Source of the DNA: Lingula anatina
Lineage: Eukaryota; Animalia; Brachiopoda
NCBI GenBank assembly: GCA_051362555.1
Contig: CM120645.1
Location: 12,524,001 to 12,588,000 of the forward strand
Direction of reading: 5' to 3'
Length of the DNA stretch: 64,000 bases
Shown: piece after piece, positions 3,298 to 42,372 of the stretch
How the letters are laid out: each line of letters opens with the position of its first letter
Numbering within the stretch: the first letter of the stretch is position 1
The notes under the pieces: model-generated
What the model was told of the DNA's origin: nothing
Database searches by the model: none
Seen by the model: the letters and a program-made list of their open reading frames with translations, nothing else
Translations under genes and position numbers: made by a program

Positions 3298-6200
3298 CCT
3301 TGACAGAGGCAGTGTGTGGGACCTCCACATGAGAGTGTTGGGTCTTGAACTTTGTGGGTGGTTGCACCTGTATGTCCCAGGGGCCTGGGGCAGGGCCGTT
3401 ATGTGGGCCGTCAATTGGCTGTCCTGTTATAATGAAAAATTAGGCAATTACTATGAATGATAGCAATTACAATTAGCAAAAATGAATTTAACTGAATTTT
3501 AAATAATCTTCTAGTGCATAGGTTTTTTATAATGTCTCTTAATTGTACATTGACGATGACTATAGAAGTACATTTGTCAAAATTGCTAAATACGACATCC
3601 TGCACAAATGTACAAAGTGAGATAAAAAATGGAAATATCCCTTTTAAAATTTTGAATTTTCATACACCTTCAGTTGTTACTGTTAAACTGAATATACAAA
3701 CCTATGTAAGGCTCATATGCCCAAGATGTCTGTCGTTTCTCGGTGAAGGTCTCCAATGTGTACTGGAAAATTCAAACATGATAATTAGAGTAAAAAGTAA
3801 ATCAGTCATTCTTTGCTAGTGGTGCACTGCAGGGGGGCCATAACAAGAATGTTATTTAAATTTAGATAGCCAACCAAATTCTCATGACATCGTTGTGTAT
3901 GTTTCAATAACAAATCAAAGAAGCTGCATGAGCAAGGAGGATGTTGTTATAAAAGCAAAAAAATAGAAAAAGCAGAAAATATATCGAAATAACCCTCAAA
4001 ATGGCGTCCTTTTTTGTGGAATTTTGACCCTACCTCTATTTAAGAACAGTTTGTTTAGGGTTTGAATGGATTATTGAAGCAGGAAATACATCTACTGCAA
4101 GAAGATATAATAAACAGAATGTGCAAATTGTTATTTAAATAACAATTTATTTGAAGTCACTGAAAAATGATCACAAAATTAGCTTAACTTACGATACATG
4201 CGGTGTCCCACCCCGATGAAAATTTCATCTAATCCTATCTTTCCGTATTAAAACTGTTCAATCGTCCAAAGTAGTATGTCGGTTAGTTTGTGTCACGAAG
4301 TCCATGATAATATCAGTTTTCTTAAGAATTTCACATTTATTGCTCAGCAAGGTCGATTTTTCTTCACCGCGTCCCAATATAACGTTCGCAACGCTGAAAC
4401 TTGAGAGATCGATTTTTATCAGACGACTTTAAAATGCCGCGTGAAAATTATACATCGATAGCGATCTTCTTCCATACTCACTAACTGATGACGTCTTACA
4501 CACGAATGGCTTCTTTTGCACACTAAAAAAAACAGCTCAAACTGGCGGGTGGCCCATTCTGATAACATATCACGCAATGACGCTGTCGAGATAGGATGCA
4601 GGGCACAGGTGTAATTCCCTCGATTTAACCGTCACAGGATTGTTTATTGGGATCTTCTTTGTATGAAGGTGAGAAATAATGAGTTTCGTTTCATTTTTCT
4701 TCAATTGTTTCAACATATTTGTGTACCGATTGATTTTTACCATTCTATAAGTAGGGTGACTTCGTCTGAACTTTCGTTTTGCATCTGTTTCACATGGGGG
4801 ACTAAAGGTCATATTGAACATGGTGACGCGGTGATACCGTATTCATGTTCTCTTGTTCTCGAAAACTCAATCATCGAAATTGAATTACTTTTTTTAGTTT
4901 TGTCTTAAATTAAGCTGCTACACTGTATTCCGTGCGTTTAAAATTTAACCGTCTGTAAAAACAGCAATAATGGATTACTAGCAACACTTACGTTACGCAA
5001 TGAAGCACCGAAAATGGGTGAAGAAAATGTGTCTCAGTAATGCGTGTTTGCCACTCATAATGCACTGTACTTTGTTTGAATAAGCAATAAACTATTTGTG
5101 ATCTTAGGTTATCCATTTAAAGTATTCACTGTGTCTACTTACTGAATTGGTGAGTGATCGCTGTCTATTGTTATGCTCTTTGATAGAATTGTAGATGGAT
5201 CGTCAATCTAGACACGTCCGGTACGGAGTGCAGAATATTAGACAATGATCTGTGACAGTTGTGATGTCACAATAGTGACGATCTCCTGCAGGGGGCGTGC
5301 TGTCCCCACCTGGCCTAGCTCACTCACCTGAGGTGGCCTATCTTGGCACATGAAGAGCAGACCAGGTGGAGGAAGGAAAAAACTCCGATCACAACATTCC
5401 CCCCACTTTTATTAAAAAGAGCCGAAAAAAGGTAAAGTTTTTTCCCAGTAATAGCAATACATGTTTAAACATGTAAAAATATTTTTCAATAACAATGGCT
5501 TCCAGCCTCGATCAGACTGACGTTAATGCTAACGACATCACCTAAGTGATAGTCTGACGAGAAAAAATATAGGATTAAACTGTGACAACTGTTGATTCAG
5601 CAGTTAGTCACATCACTGATACAGTGATAGTCTATCCACAAAAATAAATACTGGAAAGCCGAAAAATGAAATCAAAAATTTGGGGACATTCCTAGGATTT
5701 GGCGGAAGATCAGAATACTAAATAAATAATAAAATGGAAATAAATAAACACTTGTGCTGGTGCACTGTACCTAGTACAGAGTAATAAACTGTGCTGCGGT
5801 GCTGTATTGCGTCCTGCAATATAGTGCTTCTGAAATACACATATTTGTGTACATAACTTGACAAGTGATATATATATATATAAGTGCTACAGGTGCCATT
5901 GTGCTCTTGTGCATCTTTGTATCTGTAAATGATATATAAATAAATAATGAATGATAATCAAATAAAGAAATGAATAAGGTGAAAATGGGCCCACTGATGG
6001 TAACTTTCATAGCTCCGATGATCTCCCGGATCAGGAAGAGGAGAGGGGCTTCAGTGAAATTTGAATTTAGTAAGTACTAAGAAGAAATAGTTTTCATAAT
6101 TTTCTAGAAATTTTTTAATTGTCCAAAAAAGAAGTAATTTTGTCATATTTTCAATTTTTGTTTTCCAAATTCCTGGTTACTCCCTTTTATACAAGGAAGT

Positions 6201-9200
6201 ACCATTTTGTGTAGTAATTTTTAAAATATGAGAGACATCCACCCCTCTGTGCCCCGCCAATATCTCTGCCGTTTCATAGAGAATAAAGGGTGTTGAATGG
6301 CCCCCCTTTTTGCGAGCGAAATAGGGGGCATCTGACTCCAAAAGAAGTTTGGAGTCAGGCACCGCCCTAAGTGCTGCTAGTTGATTTTTGTTAAAGGTGG
6401 CAGCAACCCGGGTGAAACCGAAAAAGGTATTTGGTTGCTGCCTTCCCCAAATTTCCAGAAGGGGCTTTGTGCCTGTAAAGCAGTGAAAATGGATCCTCTG
6501 GGACTGCGGAACGCCACACAGTTTCAGATGAAACAAAAGAGATCTTATGGCGAACTCACAGTCTCCAGAGTCTCCCCTCACTCCCCTACAGTGCACAACC
6601 AGGACATGCCTGGCCTCTAGAAAAGGCAGAAGTCTGTGGAGCAACTCAACCTGATCCTGCCATTTAGACATGGCTTCAGTGTGGTCGAAACCTACCTCGC
6701 CAAAAGCTGTTACTAGCGGCATCTTAACCAACTCTGAGAAAGCCTTAATTGCCTGGTCCAGATTGCCCTGAGAAAGCTTGCCGGCTAGCCTCGGGTGAAA
6801 ACCAATAGCTACATACTCGATCCCAGACAGAGTGGAAAGATACCCCTTAGTAGGATATGTCTTGGGATCGCAGTAAATAGCTACAGTTCCCACCAACTCT
6901 ACCTCTTTCCCAGAGCAAACAGGAAGCAAACCCTTAAGACCCTCTAACTTGCCAGAGTATGGAAGACCAAAGGCAGCCAGGGTTCTATCTAGATGATAGT
7001 GACTATCGAAAGCTTGCCTCCCTGACTTACTTTGTTCCCCCGCCTCCAGACAAGTTTCTGGCCTGGTGAACCCTTGAATCCACAACGACCTCTGCTGCTC
7101 CGTTATAGAAGCAGACAGCTGTGTCAGGACTCTCCAATCCACCAGGACCCCGACAGAGTTAGCTGGGTATAAGGTGAAACGCACTGGGACCGGTTTATTG
7201 AGAAATTTACAGAAATTTTCCATGGCAGTAATTTGGATTGAAGAAAAAGTGCCATGGGCTAAATTTAATTTATCTGGAAGAGCCGAAATGAACTGGTATA
7301 AAGTGTCTAGTTCTTTTTTAAAACCAAAAATGAAGAAAGTAAGCATCTCCAGTGCTTTAACCATTACACCCAAGATGTTGGGCTCAGGATTGGCGCGCTC
7401 ATCAAAGATAGACGGGACATGCAGCCCCAGCGAATGCTGCCTGAGCATCTGCTCATTAAGTTTCACCCCACACCCAGGGACCACACATTGCATCTCAGAG
7501 TGATCTTTCCTGGCCCTTTTGGGGTCAGGTCCAACCACTCCGGATGGTGTCTGGCTAGACCTTTTCGGTTCCCTGGTTGTAGGATGAGACAGCTCCACTG
7601 ACTCAACATGCCCATCCACCCCAGACTTTGCAGCAACCAACCCCTTGCCAGGTTTCTTGCCACGCCTCCACCAAGGAGCTCTCTTCTTCCCCTTACGCTT
7701 ACTGCCCCCCATGGGCTCAGATGGTACAGGCCCAGGAACAGGAACTTGGATCCCTGTTGGAGCAGCAGCTTCAGGGAGGTGTGAACCTGAAGAAGAGGAG
7801 ATAGAAAAGTTGAAAGGGATGGCGGTATTTTGCAGCAGTGATGCGCCTGGCATAGGAGTTTCCGGAGCAGCTGGAGGTTTCACGCTGGATTTGGCCTCCC
7901 TTGGGACTCCAAGAAGTCTGTCCTCCTCAATGGAGTCCAGACTGGAGTTGGGGTCGATGTTACTTGACCCCACACCAAGTTCAGCCTCATCCAATTGCGA
8001 TTCCACCTCCATAGGCTGGACCGTGCCACTCCCATCGACCACCTGGGTTATGAGTGTAATGTTTGGGTCCTTCCCAAGCCTGAAATCACGAGTTTTTTGT
8101 CCATCGTACTCCACGGAGGGAGCAGATTTCAAAACTCGTGCAGGAGGGGTGAAATTTTTTGGGAAGGCGCCAAACATTCTTCTCAATCCAGTTTTTAGAC
8201 GCAAGCCCACTAGATTGTAGTTGGTAGGCCACTTGCTGCAACCATGCCAGAGACATGGCATACCTACCGGGAGCACGAAGCTCCTTTTTATAAATGGTAG
8301 CCATCCCAGCCACCAGTGTTTTGAAGTAGCTGCTGTGATCTTCCCCAGGCAGAGCCTGGGCCAAATCCTGGACAAACTGGGTTCCAGGGACATCTATAGG
8401 TGAACAATGCTGTAATCTGAGTGAAGTCTCCTTCACAACAGGTGCTACTTCCGTGATAGTATTGGCCATATCTGTAATAACAATGAAAAATAATTATTAG
8501 ATTTGACATTTTACACACTTGTATTTATCAATGTTTATCGCTTCGGTAGAAGTGACATTGACGCAGGATCCATGATACCATTCATGACAGTAATCACATT
8601 GAATCATGAATCTGCCCTGATAAGGCTCCCTGCAAATACAGTATGGTGTCAAATCTTCTTCCTCACTGTTACTCGAGTGCTGAAATTGTTCATCAGAAGT
8701 TAAATATTCTGTAATCCATGAGGGTACATTTCTGTCCCTACAGGGCATGAGCCTGTCATGGTTAATTACAAAGATTGCATTTTTTAGCTTCACTCGATAC
8801 AGATAGCCAGATAATTTCTTTACAATGATGGCGGGTCCTTTCCATGGTGAACACAATTTTCGTGATTTGCCTTTAGTTGTTGCTGTATCCAAAACATAAA
8901 CCAAATCCTTTTCAGCATAAGGTCCAAGCAGGATTTTAAGGTCATAGTCACGTTTCATGCGTTTTGAAGTTGTTTTTAAATTGGCTCTTGCTGTAATATG
9001 AGCTAATTTCATTTTTTGTACTAACTTTGAAATGTATTCACCATAGTCAGTTTCTTTTGATTTCAGATTTGGGAACATAATTTGGGCTGGAGTACTGACC
9101 TCCCTCCCAAGCATGAGCATATTAGGGGTATACCCCGTACTTCTGTTTACAGAAGCACGCAACGCGCCTGCAATTTGCTGGACATATTTATCCCATTCAC

Positions 9201-12200
9201 CCTGATTTTTACCCAAAAAACACCGTACGGCATCCATCAGGGTACGATTGAACCTTTCAACCTGTCCATTTGCAGACGGTCGGTACGGAGTAGTGCGTGA
9301 TTTGTGTATATGTAAAGCCCTACACAAATCCCCGAACAATTGACTTTCAAAATTCCGTCCCTGATCAGAAAAAAGTTGATAGGGATAACCGAACCTAGAA
9401 AAGAAACAGTCAATTGCTGCTTTCGCGGTCACTTCGGCCGTTTGAGAAGGCAACGGTACGCACTCTACCCACTTTGTGAATTGATCAACCATGACCAAAC
9501 AATGCTCATTACCTTTTGCTGTTTTAGGTAGCGGTCCCAAGAAATCAATATGAACCCGTTCCATCGGAGCACCTGCAACATATTCAGTCAGGGGGACTCT
9601 TCCGTAACACCCTTTTTTCTTATTTTTATTACAGATGTCACAACTCATGACATAATTGGCTATTTCTTTGCTCATATGGGGCCAGTAAAATTTTTCTTTG
9701 ATTTTTGTTTTTGTTCTAGCCACTCCTTGGTGACCAGCTGAAGGGATATCATGATGTAACTTGAAAACAGAATTTTTTAATGATTCTGGGATGACTAATT
9801 TTAGATCTTTGCTTTCCTCTTCAGTTTTGAAAATGACTCCATGATGTAATTTGAATAATTCTTTATTCAGCCAGTAAGTTTTGGAGATTGGGCTTGATCG
9901 GAAGAGTACACCCTGTTCTGGGGTATTCCCATTGTATAACCACTCTCGTAAAATGTTAAGCTCAGGGTCTTTTGCTTGTTCAGTTTTTAATTTTTCCATA
10001 GAAAAACCCCAACACTGAGGAATATCCGGGTTTGGATTTGACCTCGCCTCCGGACCACACGCATTTATTTCTACATGAGATTCCTCAGGTTGCAGAGCGA
10101 CATCGGTAGAGAGGGCTACAATTTTTTCTAGAAGACTATAGAAAAGATGTTCCGGACCCGTTTCTCGTCCCAGATTGACTGTATTTAATGAGGATGTCAG
10201 ATCGCGTTGACTTTTTGTAGATTTACCAGTAAATTTGGATGACAATTTTTTCTTTTCTGTTAAATTGACCGCTTCATCGACGTCACCGAAAAAACTCCCC
10301 CAGTTTTCATGGGCTCTGACGCAATAACTACATCCTCCGCAAGGTAAATTTTCCGGCTTTATTCCCGCAATATACTCGTTACACGGTGCCAAATTGTCGG
10401 GTATTCGAGACAACGAATCAGCATTGCTATGCTTAGCTCCGGCACGATGTTGTACGATCATATTGAATTGCGAAAGCTCTTCTATCCACCTCGCGAGTTG
10501 ACCTTGAGGCTCCTTAAACCTCAGTAACCATGTCAGACTTGAATGATCGGTGCGAACGGTAAATATTCGGCCCAAAAGATAATACCTGAATTGTCTGGTA
10601 AATCTCACGATAGCCAAAAGCTCTTTTCGCGTGGTGCAATAATTCTTTTGTTCGGGAGTTAACGCGTAGCTGCCGTACGCAATTACTTTCTCCTCGCCGT
10701 TTTGCACTTGTATTAACTCTGCACCAATCGAGTGATTTGAAGCGTCGGTATCTAAAATAAACGGATCGTTTGCGTTTGGTAACGATAAGACTGGTGGTGT
10801 AGTCAATGCCGTTTTGAGCGCTTCGAAAGATTGAGCTTGATCTGGTCCCCATTCAAAGGCATGTTTACCTTTAATTTTGTTCAGAGGGTGGGATATTTCC
10901 GCAAAATTTTTTATAAAAGTTCGGTGATAATTTGCCAATCCTAAGAACCTTTCAACGTCCTTAGAACAAGTGGGTTGTGGCCAAGAAGTTACAACTTCAA
11001 TATCCTTAGGGCTCATTTTCATGGTGTTATTAGAAACAATCCGCCCCAGGAATTCAACTTCTTTTTGAAACAAAACGCACTTTTTTGGCTTTAATTTGAT
11101 ACCGAACTGGCGAAATCTTCCCAAAGCCTCTTTCAAATTTTCTAAATGATTTTCAAAGGACTTCCCCATTACCAAAATGTCGTCCAAAAATGCCAAAACT
11201 GTTTTCCATGTCAACCCCTTCATAAGTAAATTGACTACTCGGGAGAAAGTCGCAGGAGCATTGGTCAAGCCGAAACCCATACGGACATGTTCGAATAATC
11301 CGTATTTCGTGATAAAAGCTGTTTTATGCCTATCTTCGGGTTTAATTTTGACTTGCCAATACGCAGAATTGGCATCTAACTTCGAAAACCAGATGTTTCC
11401 CGACAGAGTATCTTTGCAATCTTCCATTAATGGTAATGGATACGTGTCTTTGACCGTGACATTGTTCAAGGCGCGATAATCGATGCACCATCGGACGGAA
11501 CCGTCACGTTTTCTAATTAAAACTGGTGCTGATGCCCACTCTGACGTAGACTCTTGGATGACCCCGGCTTTTAACATTTTTGTTAATAATGCCTCCTCTT
11601 CTTGAATAAAACACGCGGGAGTTCGCCGCATACGCGTTTTAAGAGGTTTGGCATTCCCGGTATCGATACCATGCTCGATGGCACTAAACCGACCAAGGTC
11701 ATACTCGTCTCTAGCAAAAACATCCTGAAATTCAGATAGAACATTCTTTAATTTTTTACTCTGAATTTTGTTTAAATTCCTCGTTGATGTTTCATAAACC
11801 ACATTAACATGGTCAGGAATTTCTGATGATTTGCTAGCGACGCGTCCAGAAGAATCTTGTCCGGCGTGAACGTCACCAGCGATTTGTTTAAAATTCCGCA
11901 CCTGAGGTGACCCCTTTACAGGTGACTTGAAAATTTCGGTGTTAATTTTTTCTTCAACGAACCCCTTTCCGGCAGATGGGGCACTTAAAGGGCCCTGAGT
12001 ACTTCCACCCACCTTCAGAAGTTGTTTACTTTTTATGTCATTTTTAAATCGGGCACTTGTTTTAGGGATGTTCTCAAAATTAGGGGAATTAACACCAGAA
12101 ACCCCAGTAGAATTTAATCCCACAAGCTTTGTCTTATTTGGGTACACACCTGTTCTAGGGATTTTACTAGTTCTAGGAGTGTAAATTGAATGCTCCACTG

Positions 12201-15200
12201 GTAAATTGAATCCCACAAGTGTGTTTGTAGAATCCCTACCGGTTCTAGGGACGGCTGATTTTACACGAGTAATTTCAGGTAATCCCACCAGTAGATCGGT
12301 AGTCATTGTCTCATCAGTGGTACTGACAACACGAGCGCTGGATTGGTCAATTTTAGTAGACCCCCCTCCCACTCGATGTAAACCGAAGTGCGAAACAGGG
12401 TTTTCTAAAATTTCCGAAACTTCGCAAGCCGTAGCGACCACATGACCCCTTTTTAATTTTTTAAATTGATCTGATGGATTTAAGAGGCACACGACTGGTT
12501 TTGATTTTTCGGACAAGACAGTTCTCGGTATTAGTAGTCCCTCTTCTTCTTTACCCTCGACGACGTATTTTTCTAACTTTTCGTCGATCTCGCACGTTAT
12601 CCTTAGTGCTGAATTTGGGGGTACTACTACATTTCGTGAAACGCTAACCCGAGCTATTTTAATGTCTTGTGCACGCGACTCCGTTTGCTGCATAGGTATG
12701 TCGCGCCCTTCTATTTGGATGTAACCCAAATTACAATGCACGCTCGCATTAAACTGGGCAATTAGATCGTGGCCTAACAAAAAATCGTCATGTATCGGCG
12801 CTACTAGAACAGATTCCTTGATTTTGAAACGATCTAGTTCGATGGAAATTGGCTCGCAAACACGAGTTTCGATTTGTGTATTCCCTGCCGCAAGAGTAAG
12901 ACTGTAATATTTCTTGAGCGACGGTTTATTTTTTATTTGCTCGAATATTTTTTCAGCCATGACAGAAACTTGCGCACCGGTGTCAACTTTGGCCATTACA
13001 TGTACACCCGCCACTACCAAAGGAACGAATGAAGATCGAAAAACCCCAAGTTCATCAATTACAGGATTTTGACCACATTCTAACTCGGAATGATGAGGAC
13101 GATGCAATGTTTCCATTACGGGGATAGTATTGTCAACGGTTCGTGTTTGAGACAATGAAGTCACGATGGTTTCACCCGTTTTGTGACCGGTTTCAGTCGG
13201 GTTTCCAAGGTTACGGTCATTTCCCTTGGACCCTTCTAGTTTAAATGAGTTGGATTCGTTATATCAGCCCGTGCTTGTTGTTTTTCAGCATTTTTTCTTT
13301 GTAAGAATTTTTTATATTTTAGGCAATTTCGTTTAAAATGGCCCTTTCCTTTACAGAAAAAACACACAGGTGTTGTTTTAGGTGTGAATTTCCGGACCAA
13401 GCGTTCAACCATAGATTCCAACTCTGCCATTGAATTAAACTGAATTGTATTCAATTTAGGTGACTGGCTAACGCGTTTTTCCACGATGAATTCAACAAGT
13501 TGTTCTACATTTTCAGTTGGAAATTGCCGATTTTCATCAGCTGTTAAATTTAGAGAACTAATTTGTAATTCATCACGATTTTTTCGTGTTGGTTTTTGAA
13601 TATGTGATGATTTGTAGACTTGCTGATAATCCACCATGTAGGTCATTGCCTCGCTGATGCTTGCTGGGTGTTTTAAACGAGTATAACGCCCGGCATCCTG
13701 ATCAATACAGCCCTGACAAAATTTGGATATTGTTTCTTTTGTTCTAAAGGATTCTGATTCATCAGGATAAGCGTCTTTGGCCAATAACAAAACACGGCAC
13801 AGCCATTTATTCAAGGTTTCGTTGGGAGATTGAACTGCTGTATGAAATGCCAAACGAGCTGAATCGGGATGTTTTTTAATTCCGAATACTGAATCCATTT
13901 CACTCATTAAGGCTGAATACGTCATGTTTTTATTTGCTCTGAGATTGGTGTTATACAAAGCCAAAGCCTCGCCTTCCAGACTCCATAAAAGGTAATCTAG
14001 ACACTCATTTTCCGACCACTCTTTCACTTGGCGATAACTGTCAAATCTGTTTTTAAAAGACTCCCAGTTTTCACAATTTCCGTCAAAAGACAATTTTTTG
14101 GGTAAATCACTGGGGTCCCCTCTGTCCTTTTTATTTTTAGGACGTACTGTTTTTGGTACTCTAAAATATTCATTTTCACTTTCATCGCTTTCGGGAAGAA
14201 GTGGTTCGTCGCGGAAAACGGGAGACGAAATTCTATGGCGTGTATGATGTTTCTCTATTGAACTCGGCCGGTAATCATGTTTACGTTCGACTGTATCAGC
14301 AACATTATGCTCAACGTTAAGTTGCCGCCGTCCGGGCGTAGGAACATGAATCTGTGGCAGATCATAATTCGAAACAACCCGATGGACAGACGGAGCTGGT
14401 CGCCGACTACTTTCCCTACCAGTCGGTAAAGAAGTAACAGTCTCGGAATTTATGACACGGCCTGGAGGCTTTACATGCGCGGAAGAAGTTGTATGATCTT
14501 TGTTATCGACACGCAGCCTCTCAATAGGCAGAGCAAAAAGATCGTATTCAGGGTCTAAAGTGGCTGGCTGTGAAGTGAAAGTTCTGGGGTCCAAAGCTGA
14601 GTGAGAACGTAATTTTGTTTTTGGTTTGATAAATTGCTGCTCAGTTGTTGATTTTGAACGAGCTTTTAATTTTAAATATGTTGGTGGAGAATAAGTTGCA
14701 GCTTTTTGAATGTTTTTACTGCGTGCAATTTTTTCTTGTTGATTAATTTCCTCACCCACTTTGAGAATTCTTTCAAATTCTGCCCTATAGCTTTCAGCAG
14801 CCGCTCTTCCTTCATTATGAATGTAGGAAGTCACTTTAGAAGTTTTCATTTTGGGTTTTTGACTTTTTTCGGTGGATAATATACTAGAATCGAGGTCACC
14901 CACGTCGACTTCAGATTCGAATTCACTTCTGTGAGTACTGCCAAAAGAGAGATTTTCAATTACATTTGATCCAAGATTGGATCCACAAATCTCCAAAATG
15001 TTGGATCTGGTCACGGGGATCCCATGTTCTCTAGCATATATTATCCTTTCTGCACGTTTAGGACCTATACCTGGCAGCGTAACGAGCTCATCGTAAGTAG
15101 CACGATTGACTGGCAACCTTGATGCACTCGCCATTGTACATTTGAAAGCAAAAAATAAATTGATTCAAAATAATTTCACTTATCAAAGCACAATACACTA

Positions 15201-18200
15201 CCAAGCTTATAGTGAAATTCGCTATAAATAGATTCCCAAAACGTACAATGAGTTCAAATTTGGAAAACAAAGACTTTGGTACACAACGCAATAAATTGAA
15301 ATCAGACAGAAATTCTGTTCAGAATTCCGCCTAAAATACAAAAGAATAAATAACAACAACACAGAAGTCAGTATTTTATTCTTTAAATAAACTAAATAAA
15401 CAAAGAAACCAAAGTATTACGTGTGCACCTTAGTCTTGGAAAATTTCGGTAGAGATCGTAACAATGCACAGGATAATGAGACCAACGTCTCCTTTATATC
15501 ACCGACCTTTTCACGTAAGTACTGAAAAATAACGTAGATGTGCAGGAAAATCAGTGTCTCCTGATGCGGTGACCTTTACGATCCAAAATTGAAACAACAA
15601 TTTTGACCGCCGCTCCACCCAATTATTCAAATGGATGTTAGACAAAGGAATTTCCCGCGCAAACTACTTTCAGCTAGATCGCAGCGAAAACTAAGCTTTA
15701 GGCCCGCAAATATACAAGTTACGAATGCCTTGTCGCCAATAAAGTATTCACTGTGTCTACTTACTGAATTGGTGAGTGATCGCTGTCTATTGTTATGCTC
15801 TTTGATAGAATTGTAGATGGATCGTCAATCTAGACACGTCCGGTACGGAGTGCAGAATATTAGACAATGATCTGTGACAGTTGTGATGTCACAATAGTGA
15901 CGATCTCCTGCAGGGGGCGTGCTGTCCCCACCTGGCCTAGCTCACTCACCTGAGGTGGCCTATCTTGGCACATGAAGAGCAGACCAGGTGGAGGAAGGAA
16001 AAAACTCCGATCACAACACATTGTTCGTTATCAGAGTTAACAGATTCTTTGTGTGAATTTTTTTCAGAATCCCAAGAGTGGATGCCTTAGTGAGCACAGA
16101 ACAGATATCACCATTGGTCTACATATGTCAGGAAGAATGTTATAATTATGAACTTTGTGTTACACTGAACTTCATTTTGTTAAATTTTGTATTTAACTGA
16201 ACTTTTTTGTGTTAAAATAATAATAAAAAAATAATAGTTCTGATAAAAAACTACAATCTGGAACATTCTTTAGATCAACTTTGTTCAGTGTGTGTCCCAT
16301 ATGACAGAGTTACAGTAAATAAAATATGTGCATTATTCCTCTGTGTTTGTCAATTCCATTTTAAAAGCATGTGAAAGTGGTGTGCCCCTCATGAATGAAG
16401 TGTGTATGGATAATAGCAAAAATATTGTTATTATTTACATGATTATAAAAAGTTTTTGTACCCGCGTCAATAACGTTACCGTGACCCACATATTCACCAT
16501 TTTTATTAATTATGAAATGTGGATTAAATTCTTCAAAACCAGTTTTGAAGCATTGAGACAACACCCCCTTATGATTTAAACTAAAACTGAAAACATTCCA
16601 TTAGACTTTCATTAGTTTGTGCAAAATATATTACCCAGGGTAACGCGTCTTGGATTTGGTGGGTATAGCTGTTCAACTGTCCTGTGTGCCCTAAAAAGGG
16701 CAGCTGCTGTTTCCCTTTTTATGAAATGATAAACTGTGATGGTGTAGCTATCACATCGCAAAATTACAGCTTCCCAGAGAAAGTTTGAAATTTTCGGTCA
16801 AATTCAACATTTTGTAACCACTAGCAAAGAATGACAGAAATAGACTTGGTAGTCTAAATGTTGTGTGGTGTTGGCGTAAGACACGAAAGCTGAAAGTTTG
16901 AGCTTGTGCTTAGCATTTTTTTAAATTTGTTATACGCTATTTCTTGATGAAAATGTTGTTTGATAAAAAATGATAATCAACACCATGTGTTCAGGATGGA
17001 GTTACCTATTAGACTGACATATACTACTGTGAGTGGTACTAGTACTACTCACAGAACAATAATACAACAGATGAGAGTATTAGTAAATGGAGGAGGTTAG
17101 AGGAGATTATTCCACCATCATTTTTAGGTTCTAACATATTTCAATGAGATTTTTCCCCAGCATGAATTCTTAAAACAACATCAACATGACAAAGAGCTCA
17201 CGTGGAATGCACTGCTAGACTGTAGGTCTCTAAACACCATCTCCTTAGCAGTGCCGCTACCGTAGCAACAGTGCTCGGCCACATACTGCAACATGGCTTC
17301 ACGGGCCTGTTCCTCTGTTATCACAGGTACGCTGAAGTAAGAAAGAAAATACTGTACATACTGTGTTTGCTATCGGGGGTAGTGCTGGCAATTTTTTTTT
17401 TTTTTTTTGCTAACCCAAGTAACTACTATTTTGTCATTTTTTTTCCTCCAAATGGTCAATCCCATTTTTTAGCTGATTGAAGTTATCTTTAGCATTTGGC
17501 TAAATTGGCAAGTACCAGGTTCTGGTAATATGCAGTATCAATCTTTGAAGATTTTTTTCTATATTACGCATAGAAAAATAATATAAATTGTTGTGGTCCT
17601 GCCCAGACAAAGAGATAATACACTAAAAATAAATAATTAAATATATTTTTTTTTACAAATGACAGTAAATGCCTATATTCATTAACTGTATCACAAATGA
17701 CTACAAATACATGGATAAATAAAATTCCAAACGAAGCAGTTCTTAATTTTTATTTTTCTTAGAAATAATGATTGATGAAGAATTAATTTCACAGGAATTG
17801 CCCTCCACTTACTTCTGTATATCTCTCCTCTCAGGGGGTGGACCCTGTGCCACAGCATCTGCATATGCTGGCGGGGGAGCAGCAGCTGAGGAAAATCATC
17901 AAGACAAACTATATGGACAGCGTATACCAGTGCGAGTAGGCAGAAATAAACTCCAAAGCAGCACCATTTATGTTATTTGTCACTTAAAATAAAACAAGCT
18001 TATCATTTACTGAACTATAATGTTTCTTGCAAAAATTCCTTATAATATTATTAAAAATTGGCAATTATGAACATGTCGCAATCATAGCAGCCTCAAATGT
18101 AACATATCTTTCAGTTATTTAATATTTTATACCAAATGCCATGACAGGTACTGGTATGAGAGAAAAGTTTTTCAAGTACCTCCAGATTTTTAAAATCATT

Positions 18201-34292: not shown

Positions 34293-35811
34293 TACATTTT
34301 ACAACCATGTGGAGGGCGGACTTTGTATTATGCGCACGCTCAGTTTTGTGACAACGACAGCTTGATTAAAGACATGGATAAGATATCGTTTCTCTTTCGA
34401 TTGTTACGTCAAGTTATAACGCCGTGATGCAACGTCTATGTCGTATGTTTTTTTATCACAAACAGTAAACATCTTAGTGATTCTGTTGACTGTGCAGTGT
34501 AAACAGAAACGACAGAGCCTGAGAAATATGTAAATAGCAATTTCCAATTTCACTTATCACAACTAATTTAAGAGAGCTAAACTTTTTCTGCGTTGAAAGA
34601 CATTTCTTTTTGCTTTAACCTTGGACATAAAAGCTTTAACTGTTGTAGTAAACTATGGTGTGGATTCATTTGATGGGCTGATAGCAAACAACTGAATAAC
34701 GAAGAATACAAATACATGCTAACAACGAACATTTGACCAAAACTGTTTGCATTGTACTGTACATCTGTTATCTTACAATGTGTCGGACGTTGTTTATCGC
34801 TCAGGGAAATATCATTTTTCTTTTCTCAGGCACAATATAAACTAATCAAATAAATATATCATGGTAATATACAGTATGGGTTTATTAAGTGTTTTGCAAT
34901 GGTTTTATCCGACGTTATTGAAGGGAAAATAGAATATTAAAAAAATTAAGGGCGTCAAGTCTCAGCAGTGTGGTTAGTTTGAATTGTTTGACAGAATACT
35001 GCACCAACTTTCAATTTTTCACAAAGGATTGATTTTACAGAAGGGTCCACTTTCTTGTAACTGAAAATTGTAGTAAAGCACTCGGAGAACACCATACCAC
35101 ATTCTGTTTTTAAGTTGGCACAAAAATTGACTCCTTTGTCTTGGGTTGTTAGAGAAGTCTGATCTCTAGGGCAACTAAACAGACTATCACTTGTGAGTTA
35201 TTGAATCTCATGGTCAAGTAAAATGAATTTGCTATGTCCTGCGAAACCTATTTTGAAATAAATTTAAGAGACATTAAAAGGTACATACGAACCGAGCATC
35301 GGTGGAGCGTGGATTCCCAATAACACATGTAAACCACTTCTACTAGTTTTTATACGACTCAAATAAATTCGACATGCCAAGGGATAAACTGAATAGATCA
35401 CTCGAACAGCCATAAAAGAGCTTTAGACTGCTCCTTTCTTTAAATAATTGGTTGGAAATTTAACCTACTTTCGTGACCTACTTTTCTGCCCCATTGACAC
35501 ACAGCATAGAATGCTAGCAGAAAAATTCGTTCAAACGTCATTTTCGGGTAAAATTAAACAATGCCTTTTGGTAATTCTCTTAGTTATACTACTTGAAACT
35601 ATATGCTGGCATTTGGTCGCTTTTTGTGACAAAAAATTGACTTTGTATGCATCTTTAAAGAAGACTGTAAATTCGCCTTAAATACACCTTATCTGTAACT
35701 TGATTGCTCACATGATACAAGGAACTGTTAATTGTTCACGTGCGTGACTGTGTAAAATTTATGTTCATCATTTATTTCACAATTCTGAAGCAAAGATGCT
35801 TGATTATGAGC

Positions 35812-35883
35812 GGCTCGTTGGTCTAGGGGTATGATTCTCGCTTTGGGTGCGAGAGGTCCCGGGTTCAAATCCCGGACGAGCCC
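35812..35883 (+). tRNA. tRNA-Pro(TGG)
   Basis: Canonical 72-nt copy followed by TTTT. Confidence 0.97.
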
Positions 35884-35945
35884 TACATTTTACAACAATG
35901 TGGAGGGCGGACTTTTTATTACGCGCACACTCAGTTTCGTTACAC

Positions 35946-36143
35946 CAAGGAGTTTTAACAATTTCTGTTTGTGTCCTCTCGAAACGATAGACGAAGGCAC
36001 CTATTCTGACAAACGAGATTTAACGAGAGCGTAACAGAGATAGGCACCCATTGTTCTCTGGGTTCTATTCATTCCGACCAATGAGAGACCGTAAAACGGG
36101 CTCCGCCCCCACGCGTGTAATCTCCTTCTGTTATAACTCCTTG
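35946..36143. mobile_element. ~200-bp MITE with P-element-like termini
   Basis: TIR caaggagttttaaca / tgttataactccttg flanked by a GTTACAC direct repeat; absent from the other array units. Confidence 0.75.
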
Positions 36144-36767
36144 GTTACACCGTGATGCAATGTCTACCGGTATGAGGTATGTTGTTTCGTCACAAACAGT
36201 AATAAACATCATAGTGATGAAGTTGACTACAGTGTAAACAGAAACGACAGAGGAAAAATATGTAAATAGTAATTTCCAACTTCACTTATCACAACTAATT
36301 GAAGACAGCCAAGGTTTAAAGGTTTGCGTTTAAAGGTAAGACATTTCTTTTTGCTCTAACTGTTGTAGTAAACTATGGTGTGGATATATTCCATGGGCTG
36401 GTCGCATACAACTGAATAACGAAGAATACAAATATCATTCCAAACATGCTAACAATGGACATTTGGCCAAAACTACACATACAGGTATTTGCATTGTGCA
36501 TCTGCTATCTTATAATATGTTAGATGTTGTTTATGGCCCAGGGAAATATCATTTCCTTTTCTCAGGCAAAATAAGAATTGTTAAAATGAATACACCATGT
36601 TAATATACAGTTTGGGTTCATTAATTGTTCACGTGCATGACTGTCCCCATGTCTGTATAAAATTAACTTTCATCACTTATTCTACAATTATGAAGCAAAG
36701 TTGACTGGATATAAGCGGCTCATTGGTCTAGGGGTATGGTTCTCGCCTTTGGTGCGAGAGATCCCGG

Positions 36768-38250
36768 TGTCACGTGTACGGTCCGTTCTGCGTAAACCAT
36801 CCGTCCTGATCGATTGTACACGCAGCAGACACGTGTATGAGCCGTTACGTGAATGATCTGTTGTTATACACCTGAAGGCCTACTCCCAGCAGGCAAAGTC
36901 GCGTTGGATCAACGTTGAAAACAGGTTGATACGTTGAATTGCCGTTGGTCTACCTAAATTCCACGTAAAATCAACATTGATCCAGCCACGTCAAAACACC
37001 GTCATAATGTGACGTTGACTCAACGTTGTATTTTGGTCATTAACACAACCTTGCAGTTATGGATTGTAATTTAAAATATTAATTATTGAAAACGTGATAC
37101 TTTGTTCATCAATACTGTAACTAAATTTATCAAAATAATAACAAAAGGGTTTTAAAGTAAAAGTGACAGTTGTTTTGTGTCTTTAGTGAACTAGTGAATT
37201 TTCTTATCTTGTTATTCAACAAACTGAATTCCTTGCAAGGTAAGCTAACACTAGGATGAATAAGTTGCTGTAAATGTGATGGAGTGATGGTAATAAAGTT
37301 GACAGTTCATGGTAATATATATAAGAAAACAACTATATATATTAATCTAAGCCTTGGAAAATTTAACTTAAAGGCCATACATTTATACCCTACATATATT
37401 TAGCCATCAAACATGTCCTACTGCTAAACACATCCAGGCTAAAAGGGTGTACCATGCTTAGGTGCAAAACATGCTTAGGAGCTAAATGCGTTGAAAAAAT
37501 CAGACAAAGCAGGCACTTGGATGTTTTTACAGTGTACGTTATAATTGTGTACCTGTGTTTTGTACCAAAAATAAAACATTTCGGGTCATTTTAATGTCTT
37601 TTTATGCAAGAATGTTGTCCAACAACTGGGGTTGATACATATTATCTGACGTTGATCTAATTTTCAAATCCAATGTTAATCCAAACAACATAATTTCCCG
37701 CTGGGTGGGGTTGATATAACATTGTTTTCTGACGTTGATACAACGTTGTTATCTGAGGTTGACACAACTTTCAAATCCAACGTTTATCCAATGTCTTCTC
37801 AACGTTATGGACAACGTTGCTTCAACGTTTAAACAACATAATTGGCCCGCTGGGCTGTTATATTCGGCTTGTTCATTTCCTACATTGTTATACATTTACT
37901 TTGATGGGGATATTTCTAGGTAAAATTCATGTGTTAATTGATAATTTTGATAGAGAATCAGCGTCAAATTACAGTTCGACGTATGGATGAACCTACCGTA
38001 GACAGGCTGTGTTGATATGGCCACCTGAGGGAGATCGCAGTGGAGGTGGACATCTATAAGATATGAATACTTCTAAAGATTATGTTTGAATTTGCAGTAT
38101 GTTCTCAACAGTGCATGTTTATTAAAGGCTAAGAATGTATTCATGACTTGATAGAGACGGACTGTACACGCCGGAAGTCTCTCAGATTTGCCTGTGCTTT
38201 GTGCGCATGAGCAGAACGGATGGTTTACACTCCGAGCGGTACACGCCACA
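36768..38250. mobile_element. Non-autonomous Ginger-like element (TGT...ACA, imperfect ~45-bp TIR, CCGG/CCGA 4-bp TSD)
   Basis: tgtcacgtgtacgg...gtaaaccatccgtcctg versus cagaacggatggtttacac...tacacgccaca; inserted at CCGG in the tRNA T-stem. Confidence 0.65.
36885..37854. mobile_element. Non-autonomous CMC/EnSpm-like element nested in the Ginger-like element
   Basis: Termini CCCAGCAGGC / GCCCGCTGGG, 2-bp CT flanks and many subterminal CAACGTTG-type repeats. Confidence 0.7.
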
Positions 38251-38278
38251 CCGAGTTTAAATCCCGGACTAGCCTTAT

Positions 38279-38582
38279 TGTGACGATGCATTGTGTTAGT
38301 TGAGATTGTTTAATATTGCTACCTGGTAGATGTCTCTATTAGTAAAGTATAGTCTGGTGTGCAAGTTTGAATCTCTCCTGTGATTGGTAACTTAAATGTA
38401 AAACTGTTCATTGTATAAATGGTTCTGACTGGTATACGTGCACTAGCTGAACATGTGTATAAGGTCTGACTTGAATTAAATCGGCCTCTTTGGTCTTCTT
38501 TGACTCTTGAATTATTGACTTACACCAGTGAGTATTGTGTTCTTTGTACCTTCGTAAAGCACTCGGCCACGAAGGAGTAACA
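38279..38582. mobile_element. Probable solo LTR (304 bp) at the 3' end of the disrupted tRNA
   Basis: TGTGAC...GTAACA termini, TTAT/CTAT flanks, internal TATAAA and ATTAAA; the array consensus resumes directly after it. Confidence 0.65.
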
Positions 38583-39582
38583 CTATATTTCATAACTAAA
38601 TAGAGGGCAGACATTCTGTTCCACGGACTCTCAGTTTAGTTACACCGGCAGCTTGAATAAACACATGGATAAGATATCATTGTTTTCTGTGGATTGTTAG
38701 GTCATGTTATAACGTCGTGATGCAACGTCTATGTCGTATGTTGTTTCGTCATAAACAGTAAACATCATAGAGATGATGTTGACAACACTGTAAACAGAAA
38801 CGACAGAGAAATATGTAAATAGCATTTTCCAATTTTATTCATCACAATTAGTTAGGGAGAGCTAAACCTTTCTGCGTTAAAAGGTAAGACGTTTCTTTTA
38901 TGCTTCAGTTGTATTAGACTATGGTGTGGATTTATTTCATGGGCCGATCGCAAAAAACTGAATAAAGAAGAATATAAGTATTATTCCAAACATGCTAACA
39001 ACGGACATTTGACCAAAACTATGTGCATTGTACATCTGTTATCTTACAATTTGTTGGACGTTGTTTATAGTTCAGGGAAATATCATTTCCTTTTCTCATG
39101 CAAAATAAGAACTATTCAAATGAATGCATCATGGTAATATACAGTTTGGGTTTATTAAGTATTTCCAAATGGTTTTATTTGACGCTATTGAGGGAAAAAT
39201 GATTTTGTTTTTTAAATTTAGGGCGTAAGGTCTCAGCAGTGTGCTTAGCTTGAATTTGTTTAGTTGGTGCACCGACTTTCAATTCCTCAAAAATGGTTGA
39301 TTTTAGTGATGGGTCCACCTTAAATAGACTATCACAGTTACTAAATCTCCTAGTCAAGTCAAATGAATTTGCTAGGTCCTGCTAAAACTGGTTGGTAATA
39401 AATTTAAAAGACGTTTAAACTAGACTGTAAATTCGGCTTAAATGCGCCTTGTCTGTATCTTGATTGTTCATATGTGACAGGGAACTGTTAATTATTCACG
39501 TGCGTGACTGTCCCCGTGCATGTATTAAATTAATGATCGTCATTATTTTAGAAATCTGAAGCAAGGTCCATTGGACATGAGC

Positions 39583-39654
39583 GGCTCGTTGGTCTAGGGG
39601 TATGATTCTCGCTTTGGGTGCGAGAGGTCCCGGGTTCAAATCCCGGACGAGCCC
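39583..39654 (+). tRNA. tRNA-Pro(TGG)
   Basis: Canonical copy. Confidence 0.97.
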
Positions 39655-40568
39655 TATATTTTATAACTAATAGAGGTGCGACATTGTGTTCCACGGACAC
39701 TCAGTTTCGTTACACCGGCAGCTTGAATAAACACATGGATAAGATATCATTGTTGTCTGTGGATTGTTACGTCAAATTATAACGTCGTGATTCAACGTCT
39801 ATGTTGTATGATGTTTCGTCATAAACAGTAAACACCATAGTGATGATGTTGACTACTCTGTAAACAGAAACGACAGCCCAAAATTTTGTTGGACGTTGTT
39901 TATCGTTCAGGGAAATATCATTTCCTTTTCTCATACAAAATAAGAACTATTCAAATGAATGCATCATGGTAATATACAGTGTGGGTTTATTAAGTATTTC
40001 CAAATGGTTTTATTTGACGCTATTGAGGGGAAAATGAATTTTTTTTTTTTTTTTTTTTAAAAATTTAGGGCGAAAAATCTCAGCAGTGTGCTTAGCTTGA
40101 ATTTGTTTAGTTGGTGCACCGACTTTCAATTCCTCAAAAATGGTTGATTTTAGTGATGGGTCCACCTTAAATATTCGATTGTTTTTCGCAAATGTAATAT
40201 GTAATAGAGCAGTCGGAAAACACCATACCATATGCCGATTTCAGGTTGGCACAAAAATGGCCCCTTTGTCCCGGTTTGTTAAAGGTGTCTGATCGCCAGA
40301 GCAAGCTAAACAGACTATCACAGTTACTAAATCTCCTAGTCAAGTCAAATGAATTTGCTAGGTCCTGCTAAAACTAGTTAGTAATAATTTTAAAAGACAT
40401 TTAAACTAGACTGTAAATTCGCCTTAAATGCACCTTGTCTGTATCTTGATTGTTAATATGTGACAAGGAACTATTAATTATTCACTTGCGTGACTGTCCC
40501 CGTGCCTATATTAAATTAATGATCGTCATTATTTTACAATTCTGAAGCAAGATTCATTGGATATGAGC

Positions 40569-40640
40569 GGCTCGTTGGTCTAGGGGTATGATTCTCGCTT
40601 TGGGTGCGAGAGGTCCCGGGTTCAAATCCCGGACGAGCCC
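40569..40640 (+). tRNA. tRNA-Pro(TGG)
   Basis: Canonical copy. Confidence 0.97.
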
Positions 40641-41558
40641 TATATTTTATAACTAAATAGAGGTGCGACATTGTGTTCCACGGACACTCAGTTTCGTTAC
40701 ACCGGCAGCTTGAATAAACACATGGATAAGATATCATTGTTGTCTGTGGATTGTTACGTCAAATTATAACGTCGTGATTCAACGTCTATGTTGTATGATG
40801 TTTCGTCATAAACAGTAAACACCATAGTGATGATGTTGACTACTCTGTAAACAGAAACGACAGCCCAAAATTTTGTTGGACGTTGTTTATCGTTCAGGGA
40901 AATATCATTTCCTTTTCTCATGCAAAATAAGAACTATTCAAATGAATGCATCATGGTAATATACAGTGTGGGTTTATTAAGTATTTCCAAATGGTTTTAT
41001 TTGACGCTATTGAGGGGAAAATGAATTTTTTTTTTTTTTTTTAATTTAGGGCGAAAAATCTCAGCAGTGTGCTTAGCTTGAATTTGTTTAGTTGGTGCAC
41101 CGACTTTCAATTCCTCAAAAATGGTTGATTTTAGTGATGGGTCCACCTTAAATATTCGATTGTTTTTCGCAAATGTAATATGTAATAGAGCAGTCGGAAA
41201 ACACCATACCATATGCCGATTTCAGGTTGGCACAAAAATGGCCCCTTTGTCCTGGTTTGTTAAAGGTGTCTGATCGCCAGGGCAAGCTAAACAGACTATC
41301 ACATTATAGTAACTTAATCTCATAGTCGAGTAAAATGAATTTGCTAGGTCCTGCTAAAACTAGTTAGTAATAATTTTAAAAGACATTTAAACTAGACTGT
41401 AAATTCGCCTTAAATGCACCTTGTCTGTATCTTGATTGTTAATATGTGACAAGGAACTATTAATTATTCACTTGCGTGACTGTCCCCGTGCCTATATTAA
41501 ATTAATGATCGTCATTATTTTACAATTCTGAAGCAAGATTCATTGGATATATATGATC

Positions 41559-41630
41559 GGCTCGTTGGTCTAGGGGTATGATTCTCGCTTTGGGTGCGAG
41601 AGGTCCCGGGTTCAAATCCCGGACGAGCCC
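41559..41630 (+). tRNA. tRNA-Pro(TGG)
   Basis: Canonical copy. Confidence 0.97.
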
Positions 41631-41751
41631 TATATTTTGTAACTAAATAGAGGTGCGACATTGTGTTCGTTACACCGGCAGCTTGAATAAACACGTGGAT
41701 AAGATATCATTGTTGTCTGTGAATTGTTACGTCAAGTTAAAAATGAAATGT

Positions 41752-41783
<32 letters not shown>

Positions 41784-42300: not shown

Positions 42301-42372
42301 GGCTCGTTGGTCTAGGGGTATGATTTTCGCTTTGGGTGCGAGAGGTCCCGGGTTCAAATCCCGGACGAGCCC
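42301..42372 (+). tRNA. tRNA-Pro(TGG), anticodon-stem C>T variant
   Basis: GATTTTCGC instead of GATTCTCGC, giving a U-G pair. Confidence 0.9.

What the first reader, a model, noticed from the sequence alone, without database searches (positions are those of the whole stretch)
6177..8469. Gypsy retrotransposon carrying an apparently intact TatD nuclease gene in the env position
Seen: between pol and the 3' LTR, on the element's sense strand, is a long ORF whose last ~280 aa hold every TatD motif in order (DSHYH, GFHP, GEVGFD, HCR, HFHCFTG, ESDAPY). It is fused to an acidic/Pro-rich region, a basic NLS-like patch and a C2H2-like motif. It has no introns and no signal peptide or transmembrane segment, so it is not an env. 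Established: TatD/TATDN proteins are TIM-barrel metal-dependent 3'-5' exonucleases / AP endonucleases; third ORFs of Gypsy elements are usually env-like or of unknown function. Inference: a retroelement lineage has domesticated a DNA-processing nuclease. Possible uses are trimming or repairing cDNA and integration intermediates, or clearing excess cDNA before innate DNA sensors detect it. I know of no description of this combination but could not search for one.
Basis: partly seen in the sequence, partly recalled or inferred. Interest (0 to 1): 0.93.

Follow-up and report, generated by a model that had tools for sequence, protein, structure and literature searches.

The report
Gypsy retrotransposon clade carrying TatD nuclease
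A very young jumping gene carries, where a viral coat gene would normally sit, a third gene ending in a TatD nuclease with all its metal-binding residues, and distant relatives show the same layout, so this is an old accessory gene that likely trims RNA (or DNA) during the element's own life cycle, although this copy's third gene has a frame break near its start.

Summary
The finding is real and is not a one-off. The window holds a complete minus-strand Ty3/Gypsy element (5118-16018) with identical LTRs and a 4-bp target duplication: gag (HhH), pol (ending in PHD), then ORF3. ORF3 ends in a full HxH-class TatD domain (Pfam E 5e-27; model pLDDT 94).

Correction: the ATG at 8469 and the TatD domain lie in different frames here. 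The break (about 8160-8090) cuts off a conserved N-terminal domain.

Relatives occur in bivalves, gastropods and a brachiopod; 146 of 160 keep all seven active-site residues at about 35% identity. Outside the window, TatD sits beside Gypsy pol in one complete element, two fused gene models and, indirectly, one cluster. ORF3 also holds a conserved zinc-finger-like helical domain with no solved match. Motifs point to TATDN2, an R-loop RNase, as the likely donor. Activity, expression and role are untested.

The closest precedent in print is the DEDDy-exonuclease ORF3 of rotifer Juno/Vesta. No TatD case turned up in the papers searched; Repbase, GyDB and Dfam were not searchable. This scan noted the same layout earlier in another genome (e1-7881919).

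The parts
15740..16018 (-). 5' LTR, 279 bp, begins TG and ends TA; holds donor-like GT sites at 15949 and 15764 (the second is 25 nt before the LTR end)
   Evidence: 100% identical to the 3' LTR; ends; donor-like sites
15722..15739 (-). Primer-binding-site-like sequence (TGG.. one base after the LTR); primer tRNA not identified
   Evidence: the same TGGCG start follows the LTR of L001
13236..15134 (-). gag: N-terminal helix-hairpin-helix, PNMA-type capsid region, CCHC knuckle
13239..13245 (-). TTTAAAC heptamer just before the gag stop; predicted -1 gag-pol frameshift site
   Evidence: the same heptamer is at the L001 gag-pol junction
8497..13263 (-). pol: protease, RT, RNase H, integrase, C-terminal PHD finger; open for 1588 codons
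8471..8497 (-). Splice-acceptor-like tract (T-rich, ending CAG) two bases before the ORF3 ATG; use is predicted, not shown
   Evidence: L001 has CAG one base before its ORF3 ATG
8086..8469 (-). ORF3 5' part (127-aa frame); its first ~103 codons are the family's conserved N-terminal domain, out of frame with the rest in this copy
8090..8160 (-). Interval in which the ORF3 reading frame is broken in this assembly
   Evidence: homology ends in one frame and resumes in the other; codon-usage score switches frame nearby
7510..8090 (-). Poorly conserved acidic/Pro/Ser-rich linker with a basic NLS-like patch (about residues 232-249 of the 738-aa frame)
   Evidence: sequence; no alignment to the relative
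7029..7508 (-). Conserved middle domain: C-x4-C...H-x4-H-x-P zinc-finger-like motif plus a helical part ending P-x-N-S..L-x-(H/D)-W-R; no Pfam family, no solved fold matched
   Evidence: in 114 of 116 relatives with >200 aa upstream of TatD; model pLDDT 91.7
6177..7010 (-). TatD TIM-barrel domain, HxH class, with H465, H467, E566, H601, H637, E686, D688 (numbering of the 738-aa frame)
5397..5410 (-). Polypurine tract
   Evidence: near-identical tract in L001
5118..5396 (-). 3' LTR, 279 bp
5114..5117 (.). 4-bp target-site duplication, left copy (right copy 16019-16022)
   Evidence: empty-site joint 5113 to 16019 with 4 shared letters in 2 of 4 DNA runs

Best explanation
This is a very recent insertion of an old Ty3/Gypsy clade whose third gene encodes a conserved, likely active TatD nuclease, likely derived from host TATDN2, predicted to be made from a spliced env-style message, and most likely used to degrade RNA in the R-loop or hybrid structures that the element itself produces. 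Shown: the element's anatomy, the same gag-pol-ORF3 layout in distant relatives, the fold model, and the conserved active site (about 0.85-0.9 that ORF3 is a selected, catalytically competent accessory gene of the clade). Inferred: splicing from a donor at the end of the 5' LTR to the acceptor before the ATG, nuclear import by the basic patch, substrate binding by the zinc-finger-like middle domain, and TATDN2 ancestry (about 0.7). Least certain: the substrate. By analogy with TATDN2, the enzyme would clear RNA from R-loops at transcribed element copies or from strand-displaced intermediates of reverse transcription and integration, keeping the element expressed and its germ-line host cell alive. 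This copy can make the full protein only if its frame break is an assembly error or is read through; sister copies could supply it in trans.
For: Layout shared by L001, a whole element with TatD 36% and RT-RNase H 64% identical to the window's, with the same HhH-gag, TTTAAAC site, PHD, PPT and PBS start. Also P0184 (integrase-PHD-TatD in one gene call), Dreissena XP_052257948.1 (TatD-gag-RT-RNase H-TatD piece) and, indirectly, pol pieces in the 90% cluster of P0217. These cases fall in both main branches of the family tree. Multi-copy pattern: 13 Mya arenaria members on 11 different chromosome-scale sequences, 7 of them 824 aa. Seven active-site residues kept together in 146 of 160 relatives, against a maximum of 17 for 2000 random 7-column sets. 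TIM-barrel model pLDDT 94, top 15 listed Foldseek ranks all TatD-type. TATDN2 link: HxH class (PMC10085689); a C-D-P motif that only human TATDN2 shows among the 8 proteins aligned in that paper's supplement and that is matched by 123 of 161 family rows; a long N-terminal extension with a basic patch, as described for TATDN2. TATDN2 degrades R-loop RNA and needs its N-terminal region to bind (PMC10711561) and is expressed in germ cells (PMC12709183 abstract). A donor-like site 25-27 nt before the LTR end and CAG 1-2 nt before the ATG occur in both the window and L001.
Against: No activity, expression or splicing was shown. No named TATDN2 sequence was in hand, so ancestry rests on motifs and on two unnamed TATDN2-like rows being the nearest outgroup. 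My motif pattern missed those two rows, and it also scored family member L002 as negative. TATDN2 has minimal activity on plain RNA:DNA duplexes and the element has its own RNase H, so a role in routine reverse transcription is not obvious. TATDN3, also HxH class, is a DNA exonuclease and AP endonuclease. DNA context was seen directly for only one relative. The divergent rows (e.g. P0255, P0257, P0260-P0263) have no context and may not sit in Gypsy elements. Raw TatD identities do not fully follow the integrase identities (window-P0184 41% against window-P0217 38%, reversed for integrase). ORF3 is frame-broken in this very young copy. The donor-site match was noticed after the fact (background 1.3-2.1 such sites per kb).
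Confidence: 0.5

Rival explanations
1. ORF3 is a DNA-directed 3'-5' exonuclease or AP endonuclease that trims or repairs the element's cDNA or integration gaps.
For: TATDN1, TATDN3 and the E. coli paralogues have these activities (PMC10085689). The window keeps the TATDN3-type ligand set. The clade also carries DNA- or chromatin-binding add-ons, HhH on gag and PHD on integrase, which suggests a nuclear, DNA-facing kit.
Against: The motifs are closer to TATDN2, which has little activity on DNA oligomers and only very weak AP activity. A single-strand DNA exonuclease inside the particle would endanger the cDNA (inference). Most Gypsy elements integrate without one (general knowledge).
Confidence: 0.25
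2. ORF3 is a counter-defence effector aimed at the host: it degrades small-RNA guides or precursors, or nucleic-acid ligands of innate sensors, instead of processing replication intermediates.
For: It is a separate gene with a predicted spliced message, a large variable linker and a dedicated binding-like domain. Other 3'-5' exonucleases were captured into the same slot in rotifer elements, and a silencing-related role was raised there (PMC5408684).
Against: There is no direct evidence. The catalytic and middle domains are conserved across phyla, not visibly fast-evolving, though I ran no test for positive selection.
Confidence: 0.17
3. ORF3 is neutral cargo, a recent capture of a host TATDN cDNA, or a set of ordinary host genes next to elements by chance.
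For: This copy's ORF3 has a frame break, as does L002. Public annotations name the relatives as uncharacterized host proteins, and some single copies may be domesticated.
Against: 146 of 160 relatives keep all seven ligands at a median 35% identity. The same position after a PHD-ending pol recurs in elements with 64-75% RT identity. Many same-length copies are dispersed within a species.
Confidence: 0.04

Closest known systems
Juno and Vesta LTR retrotransposons of bdelloid rotifers with a DEDDy 3'-5' exonuclease or GDSL esterase as ORF3 (PMC5408684; part 1 of 5 and passages read)
   Same: An enzyme with intact catalytic residues in the env slot, no membrane domains, family-specific, function untested; 3'-end processing was proposed.
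   Different: Unrelated nuclease fold (TatD TIM barrel, not DEDD). ORF3 here has extra conserved N-terminal and zinc-finger-like domains. Pol has a PHD finger and no dUTPase hit. The range spans molluscs and a brachiopod, not one rotifer class. That paper does not mention TatD.
Human and vertebrate TATDN2 (PMC10711561 abstract and two results sections; PMC12709183 abstract; PMC10085689 passages and 2 of 3 supplement parts)
   Same: HxH class; C-terminal TatD domain behind a long N-terminal region with a basic patch; C-D-P motif; acidic residues matching E593, E705 and D707 (E566, E686, D688 here).
   Different: TATDN2 is a single-copy host gene; this one is multi-copy and lies inside LTR elements, with conserved N-terminal and middle domains of its own. 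No direct sequence comparison with TATDN2 was possible.
TATDN3, E. coli YcfH and S. aureus TatD (class II TatD structures 2Y1H, 1YIX, 2GZX)
   Same: TIM-barrel fold and two-metal ligand set (Foldseek E 1e-14 range, TM about 0.7).
   Different: Only 16-22% identity; stand-alone cellular enzymes of about 260 aa; the family forms its own side of a 99-supported split from all 29 cellular-type rows.
Errantivirus-type Ty3/Gypsy elements with env as ORF3 (PMC13524379; passages only)
   Same: Third ORF between pol and the 3' LTR, preceded by an acceptor-like site, as for a spliced subgenomic message (env splicing is recalled knowledge).
   Different: No signal peptide, fusion protein or membrane anchor; the product is an enzyme. 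That paper's main text has no 'TatD', 'DNase', 'nuclease' or 'PHD'.

Membership tests
Ty3/Gypsy LTR retrotransposons (Metaviridae) | Two direct LTRs with target-site duplication | tested here: met
   279-bp identical LTRs; 4-bp TSD. The LTR ends TA, not the usual CA.
Ty3/Gypsy LTR retrotransposons (Metaviridae) | pol order protease-RT-RNase H-integrase | tested here: met
Ty3/Gypsy LTR retrotransposons (Metaviridae) | gag with capsid and CCHC; PBS and PPT | tested here: met
   PNMA-type region and a weak CCHC hit; PBS-like and PPT sequences; primer tRNA not identified
A named Gypsy clade (C-clade, MolGy1-16, CsRn1 and others) | RT-tree placement with reference elements | not testable with these tools
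   No GyDB or Repbase references were on hand. PMC6238403 defines clades on RT/RNase H and does not mention TatD or PHD.
TatD nucleases, class II | TIM-barrel TatD fold | tested here: met
   PF01026 full length; model and Foldseek
TatD nucleases, class II | N-terminal HxH motif and metal ligands | tested here: met
   H465, H467, E566, H601, H637, E686, D688
TatD nucleases, class II | Metal-dependent nuclease activity | not testable with these tools
   needs an assay
TATDN2 clade | HxH plus long N-terminal extension with NLS-like patch; C-D-P motif seen in human TATDN2 | tested here: met
   The motif is my reading of one published alignment of 8 proteins, not a curated signature.
TATDN2 clade | Phylogenetic placement with named TATDN2 sequences | tested here: inconclusive
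   No named TATDN2 was in the tree; two unnamed TATDN2-like rows (L003, L047) are the nearest outgroup
env-carrying Gypsy (errantivirus-like) | ORF3 with signal peptide, fusion domain and transmembrane anchor | tested here: not met
   Only TatD in Pfam; hydropathy scan
Bdelloid Juno/Vesta with enzymatic ORF3 | DEDDy or GDSL ORF3; dUTPase in pol | tested here: not met
   No such Pfam hits in ORF3 or pol

The most novel reading that the evidence does not exclude
A cross-phylum clade of Gypsy elements captured the germ-line R-loop RNase TATDN2, bolted on a new zinc-binding recognition domain, and uses it together with an HhH-gag and a PHD-integrase to strip RNA from R-loops at its own loci. That would be a retrotransposon-encoded R-loop resolvase that blunts nascent-RNA-guided silencing and replication damage, and hundreds of 'uncharacterized' mollusc genes would be its copies.
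Probability: 0.22. Interest if true: 0.88.

Novelty: new variant of a known kind. Interest (0 to 1): 0.68.

Why it matters
Third ORFs of Gypsy elements are assumed to be env-like or are left unexplained. This is an old, widespread and still mobile clade whose third gene is an enzyme with known relatives, named catalytic residues and ready assays. That makes the question of what non-env ORF3s do directly testable. With the rotifer DEDDy case, it suggests that LTR elements have repeatedly recruited unrelated 3'-5' nucleases into the same slot, which points to an unrecognised need in their life cycle. It adds a well-folding domain with no solved match. It also flags many 'uncharacterized' or 'TatD' gene models in bivalve, gastropod and brachiopod genomes as likely transposon genes, which would distort TatD family-expansion claims.

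Tried and rejected
No whole genome is held for this window, so copy number and dN/dS among copies were not measured.

A word-based search with the whole 738-aa frame found nothing; the TatD domain alone found the family.

The metagenome scan stopped at 2 of 64 parts; 2 of its 80 loci are family members. The viral-contig scan gave 4 loci with weak (23-29%) TatD matches, none of the family.

No RNA holder was listed among indexed runs, which is no evidence on expression. No RNA reads were laid, so expression and splicing stay open.

The indel table of the DNA lay showed 12 of 94 rows, none in 8090-8160; it cannot decide whether the break is shared.

A short intron at the break was rejected by eye (no room for one). 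A general programmed frameshift was rejected because relatives from intron-blind-looking short contigs have one continuous ORF; read-through in this copy is not excluded.

PPR hits are repeat artefacts. The NCBIfam QatD, YcfH and TatD models all score far below their cut-offs.

Middle domain: no Pfam hit, no Foldseek match at E<=0.001, best VIA Z 3.6, Atlas hits under 0.8; this does not prove a new fold.

The Atlas row from Archaea and the 'Sedimenticola MAG' label on P0071 were not taken as signs of transfer.

Paper searches with TatD plus retrotransposon/Gypsy, LTR retrotransposon, transposable element/Repbase, retroelement, or Gypsy/open reading frame returned only unrelated papers, judged from listings (one checked by passage). 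The search for Ty3+PHD+integrase+helix-hairpin-helix+retrotransposon+gag gave 0. One review was not held.
Full report
THE ELEMENT. The window holds a complete minus-strand LTR element at 5118-16018. Its LTRs (15740-16018 and 5118-5396) are 279 bp and 100% identical. A 4-bp target duplication, a PBS-like sequence and a polypurine tract are in place. Contigs from 2 of 4 public DNA runs join 5113 to 16019 with 4 shared letters, the empty site; the flanks are themselves a high-depth repeat, so this fixes the ends but does not prove polymorphism at this locus. gag (15134-13236) has an N-terminal helix-hairpin-helix, a PNMA-type region and a CCHC knuckle. pol (13263-8497, open for 1588 codons) has protease, RT, RNase H, integrase and a C-terminal PHD finger. 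A TTTAAAC heptamer precedes the gag stop, read as a -1 frameshift site from general knowledge. This is a very young Ty3/Gypsy insertion.

ORF3 AND A CORRECTION. But the ATG at 8469 opens a different, 127-aa frame, and a codon-usage score switches frame at about 8230-8170. The first 103 codons of the 8469 frame match the N-terminus of the Lingula relative (33%, E 2e-11). An iterated profile seeded on it finds the domain in 65 of 98 relatives of 600 aa or more, and not in the first 100 residues of the 738-aa frame. Similarity in the other frame resumes weakly near 8090. So the natural protein is about 800 aa: N-terminal domain, variable linker with a basic patch, middle domain, TatD. In this assembly it is broken between about 8160 and 8090. 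The interval has two A6 runs, so an assembly error is possible. The DNA lay printed 12 of 94 indel rows and cannot decide.

THE NUCLEASE LOOKS FUNCTIONAL. AlphaFold2 on a 35-row alignment gives a TIM barrel, pLDDT 94, pTM 0.92; the best Foldseek matches are TatD structures (E 6e-15 to 4e-10, 15-22% identity). Of 263 stored proteins plus the window and L001 products, 260 had a TatD hit and 210 a full domain; 161 remained after removing pairs of 80% identity or more. In the 160 rows other than the window, H465, H467, E566, H601, H637, E686 and D688 are each kept in 154-159, at a median 35% identity to the window. All seven are kept together in 146 of 160, against at most 17 for 2000 random column sets. 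These rows were picked by likeness to the domain, which favours conservation but not specifically of the ligands. By hand, 5 of the 7 listed variants in 7278-8148 fall on third codon positions of the long frame, which is weak support.

A FAMILY, NOT A ONE-OFF. The domain finds 128 clusters (50% identity) at E<=1e-30. Named hosts are Lingula; the bivalves Mya, Dreissena, Magallana/Crassostrea, Saccostrea, Pinctada, Pecten, Argopecten and Mercenaria; and the gastropods Elysia and Batillaria. The top Atlas cluster is mostly Mollusca. Copies behave like transposon genes: 13 Mya members lie on 11 chromosome-scale sequences, 7 of them 824 aa; 9 of the 15 listed members of a 26-member cluster are 862 aa.

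LINKAGE TO GYPSY POL ELSEWHERE. (1) L001, a 9,035-base metagenome contig whose ends overlap by 99 bases, is a whole element: HhH-gag, TTTAAAC, pol ending in PHD, TatD ORF3, PPT, one 190-bp LTR and the same PBS start. Its RT-RNase H is 64% and its TatD 36% identical to the window's. (2) P0184 is one gene call holding integrase, PHD and the whole ORF3. (3) Dreissena XP_052257948.1 runs ORF3-gag-RT-RNase H-TatD fragment, as tandem or nested copies would. (4) The 182-member cluster of P0217 contains RT-integrase-PHD pieces, which is indirect. Only L001 gave DNA context; L002, the other family locus among 80, is too short and is itself frame-broken. In the window's own species, contigs from four studies cover both pol and ORF3, and some bridge the pol end and the ORF3 start. 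In a tree of 80 rows (50 family proteins, 32 chosen and 18 drawn at random, plus the 30 top-scoring loci; SH-aLRT only), all 51 family rows are split from 29 cellular-type rows with support 99. The five linked cases fall in both main family branches. The window, Dreissena and P0217 group together in the TatD tree (98) and are also closer to each other than to L001 in RT (67-75% against 64-66%). Raw TatD identities do not follow integrase identities for P0184. Nine divergent rows outside the 42-row core have no context.

A SECOND CONSERVED DOMAIN. 114 of 116 rows with more than 200 residues before TatD share a domain of about 150 aa: C303, C308, H320 and H325 are kept in 107-109 of 112, and a P-x-N-S..L-x-H-W-R motif follows. 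It folds confidently (pLDDT 91.7, pTM 0.86). Fold and family searches gave no clear match. A zinc-binding, substrate-holding role is inferred.

ORIGIN. Dorival and Eichman (PMC10085689; passages and 2 of 3 supplement parts read) divide TatD into (G/A)xN and HxH classes and note that TATDN2 often has a long N-terminus with an NLS. The element's enzyme is HxH. In their alignment of 8 proteins only human TATDN2 has C-D-P after the second strand. A [YFH]C[DNE]P pattern matches 123 of 161 family rows and 0 of 80 locus-derived rows. Those 80 include family member L002 and two rows with C-D-P or C-S-P (L003, L047) that the pattern missed; those two are the nearest outgroup in the tree. TATDN2 ancestry is therefore likely but untested against named sequences. 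Human TATDN2 degrades the RNA of R-loops, needs E593 and E705 (matching E566 and E686 here by motif), needs its N-terminal region to bind, and has little activity on DNA oligomers or plain hybrids (PMC10711561; abstract and two results sections). It is expressed in germ cells and protects them in medaka (PMC12709183; abstract).

EXPRESSION, PREDICTED. ORF3 starts 28 bases after the pol stop, behind a T-rich tract ending CAG. L001 has CAG one base before its ATG. Both have a donor-like GT(A/G)AG 25-27 bases before the end of the LTR, against 1.3-2.1 such sites per kb. A splice there would remove the PBS, gag and pol, as for env. No RNA evidence was obtained.

MECHANISM. Most likely (0.5): a nuclear, TATDN2-like RNase that clears RNA from R-loop-like structures made by the element's transcription or replication. 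Rivals: DNA end-trimming or repair (0.25), host-directed counter-defence (0.17), neutral cargo (0.04).

WHAT IS KNOWN. Rodriguez, Kenefick and Arkhipova (PMC5408684; part 1 of 5 and passages) describe rotifer LTR elements with DEDDy exonuclease or GDSL ORF3s of untested function; the idea of a 3'-5' nuclease in the env slot is therefore in print. TatD in a retrotransposon was not found in five TatD searches, nor in the main text of the mollusc, annelid and env surveys (term look-ups only), nor in five supplementary files of the mollusc survey (one more was an unreadable image). Repbase, GyDB, Dfam, subscription journals and bioRxiv supplements could not be seen and may already record it. This scan noted the same layout in a sea-urchin genome (e1-7881919); I did not test that genome.

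VERDICT. A real, old, still active Gypsy clade with a conserved TatD accessory gene and an unassigned partner domain: a new variant of a known kind. Interest 0.68.

Noticed in passing
window 33352-45928: Tandem array of 11 tRNA-Pro(TGG) genes in units of roughly 0.75-1 kb in its main part.
   Followed up: partly
window 4600-5117 and 16019-16500: The element sits in a high-copy repeat; contig depth on the flanks is mostly far above that inside the element in 3 of 4 runs.
   Followed up: no
window about 11850-12330 (pol residues ~312-472): About 160 low-complexity residues between protease and RT that L001's pol lacks.
   Followed up: no
window joints 6988-11725, 6792/6801-14007/14018, 5351-12341: Internally deleted derivatives in public DNA contigs; the 6988-11725 joint, in 3 of 4 runs, keeps almost exactly the TatD domain.
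   Followed up: no
window 15134-15000 and 8640-8500; L001 8564-8720 and 5450-5590: An HhH at the gag N-terminus and a PHD at the integrase C-terminus recur in the clade; the six-term paper search for the combination gave 0.
   Followed up: partly
window 5118-5121 and 15740-15743: The LTR ends in TA, not CA, on the sense strand; L001's LTR ends in CA.
   Followed up: no
P0045, P0160: Some ORF3 relatives carry CCHC zinc knuckles in the linker, consistent with RNA binding.
   Followed up: no
P0241; P0120: Gene models that fuse the TatD part to a YqaJ/alkaline-exonuclease piece or to a sulfatase; probably annotation chimeras.
   Followed up: no
P0015, P0255, P0257, P0260-P0263: Divergent relatives (24-29% identity) with a longer Cys/His-rich middle domain; their genomic context is unknown and they may belong to other mobile elements.
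   Followed up: partly
L003:5736-6533: A TATDN2-like TatD with C-D-P in a bacterial gene neighbourhood, sister to a eukaryote-looking one in L047.
   Followed up: partly
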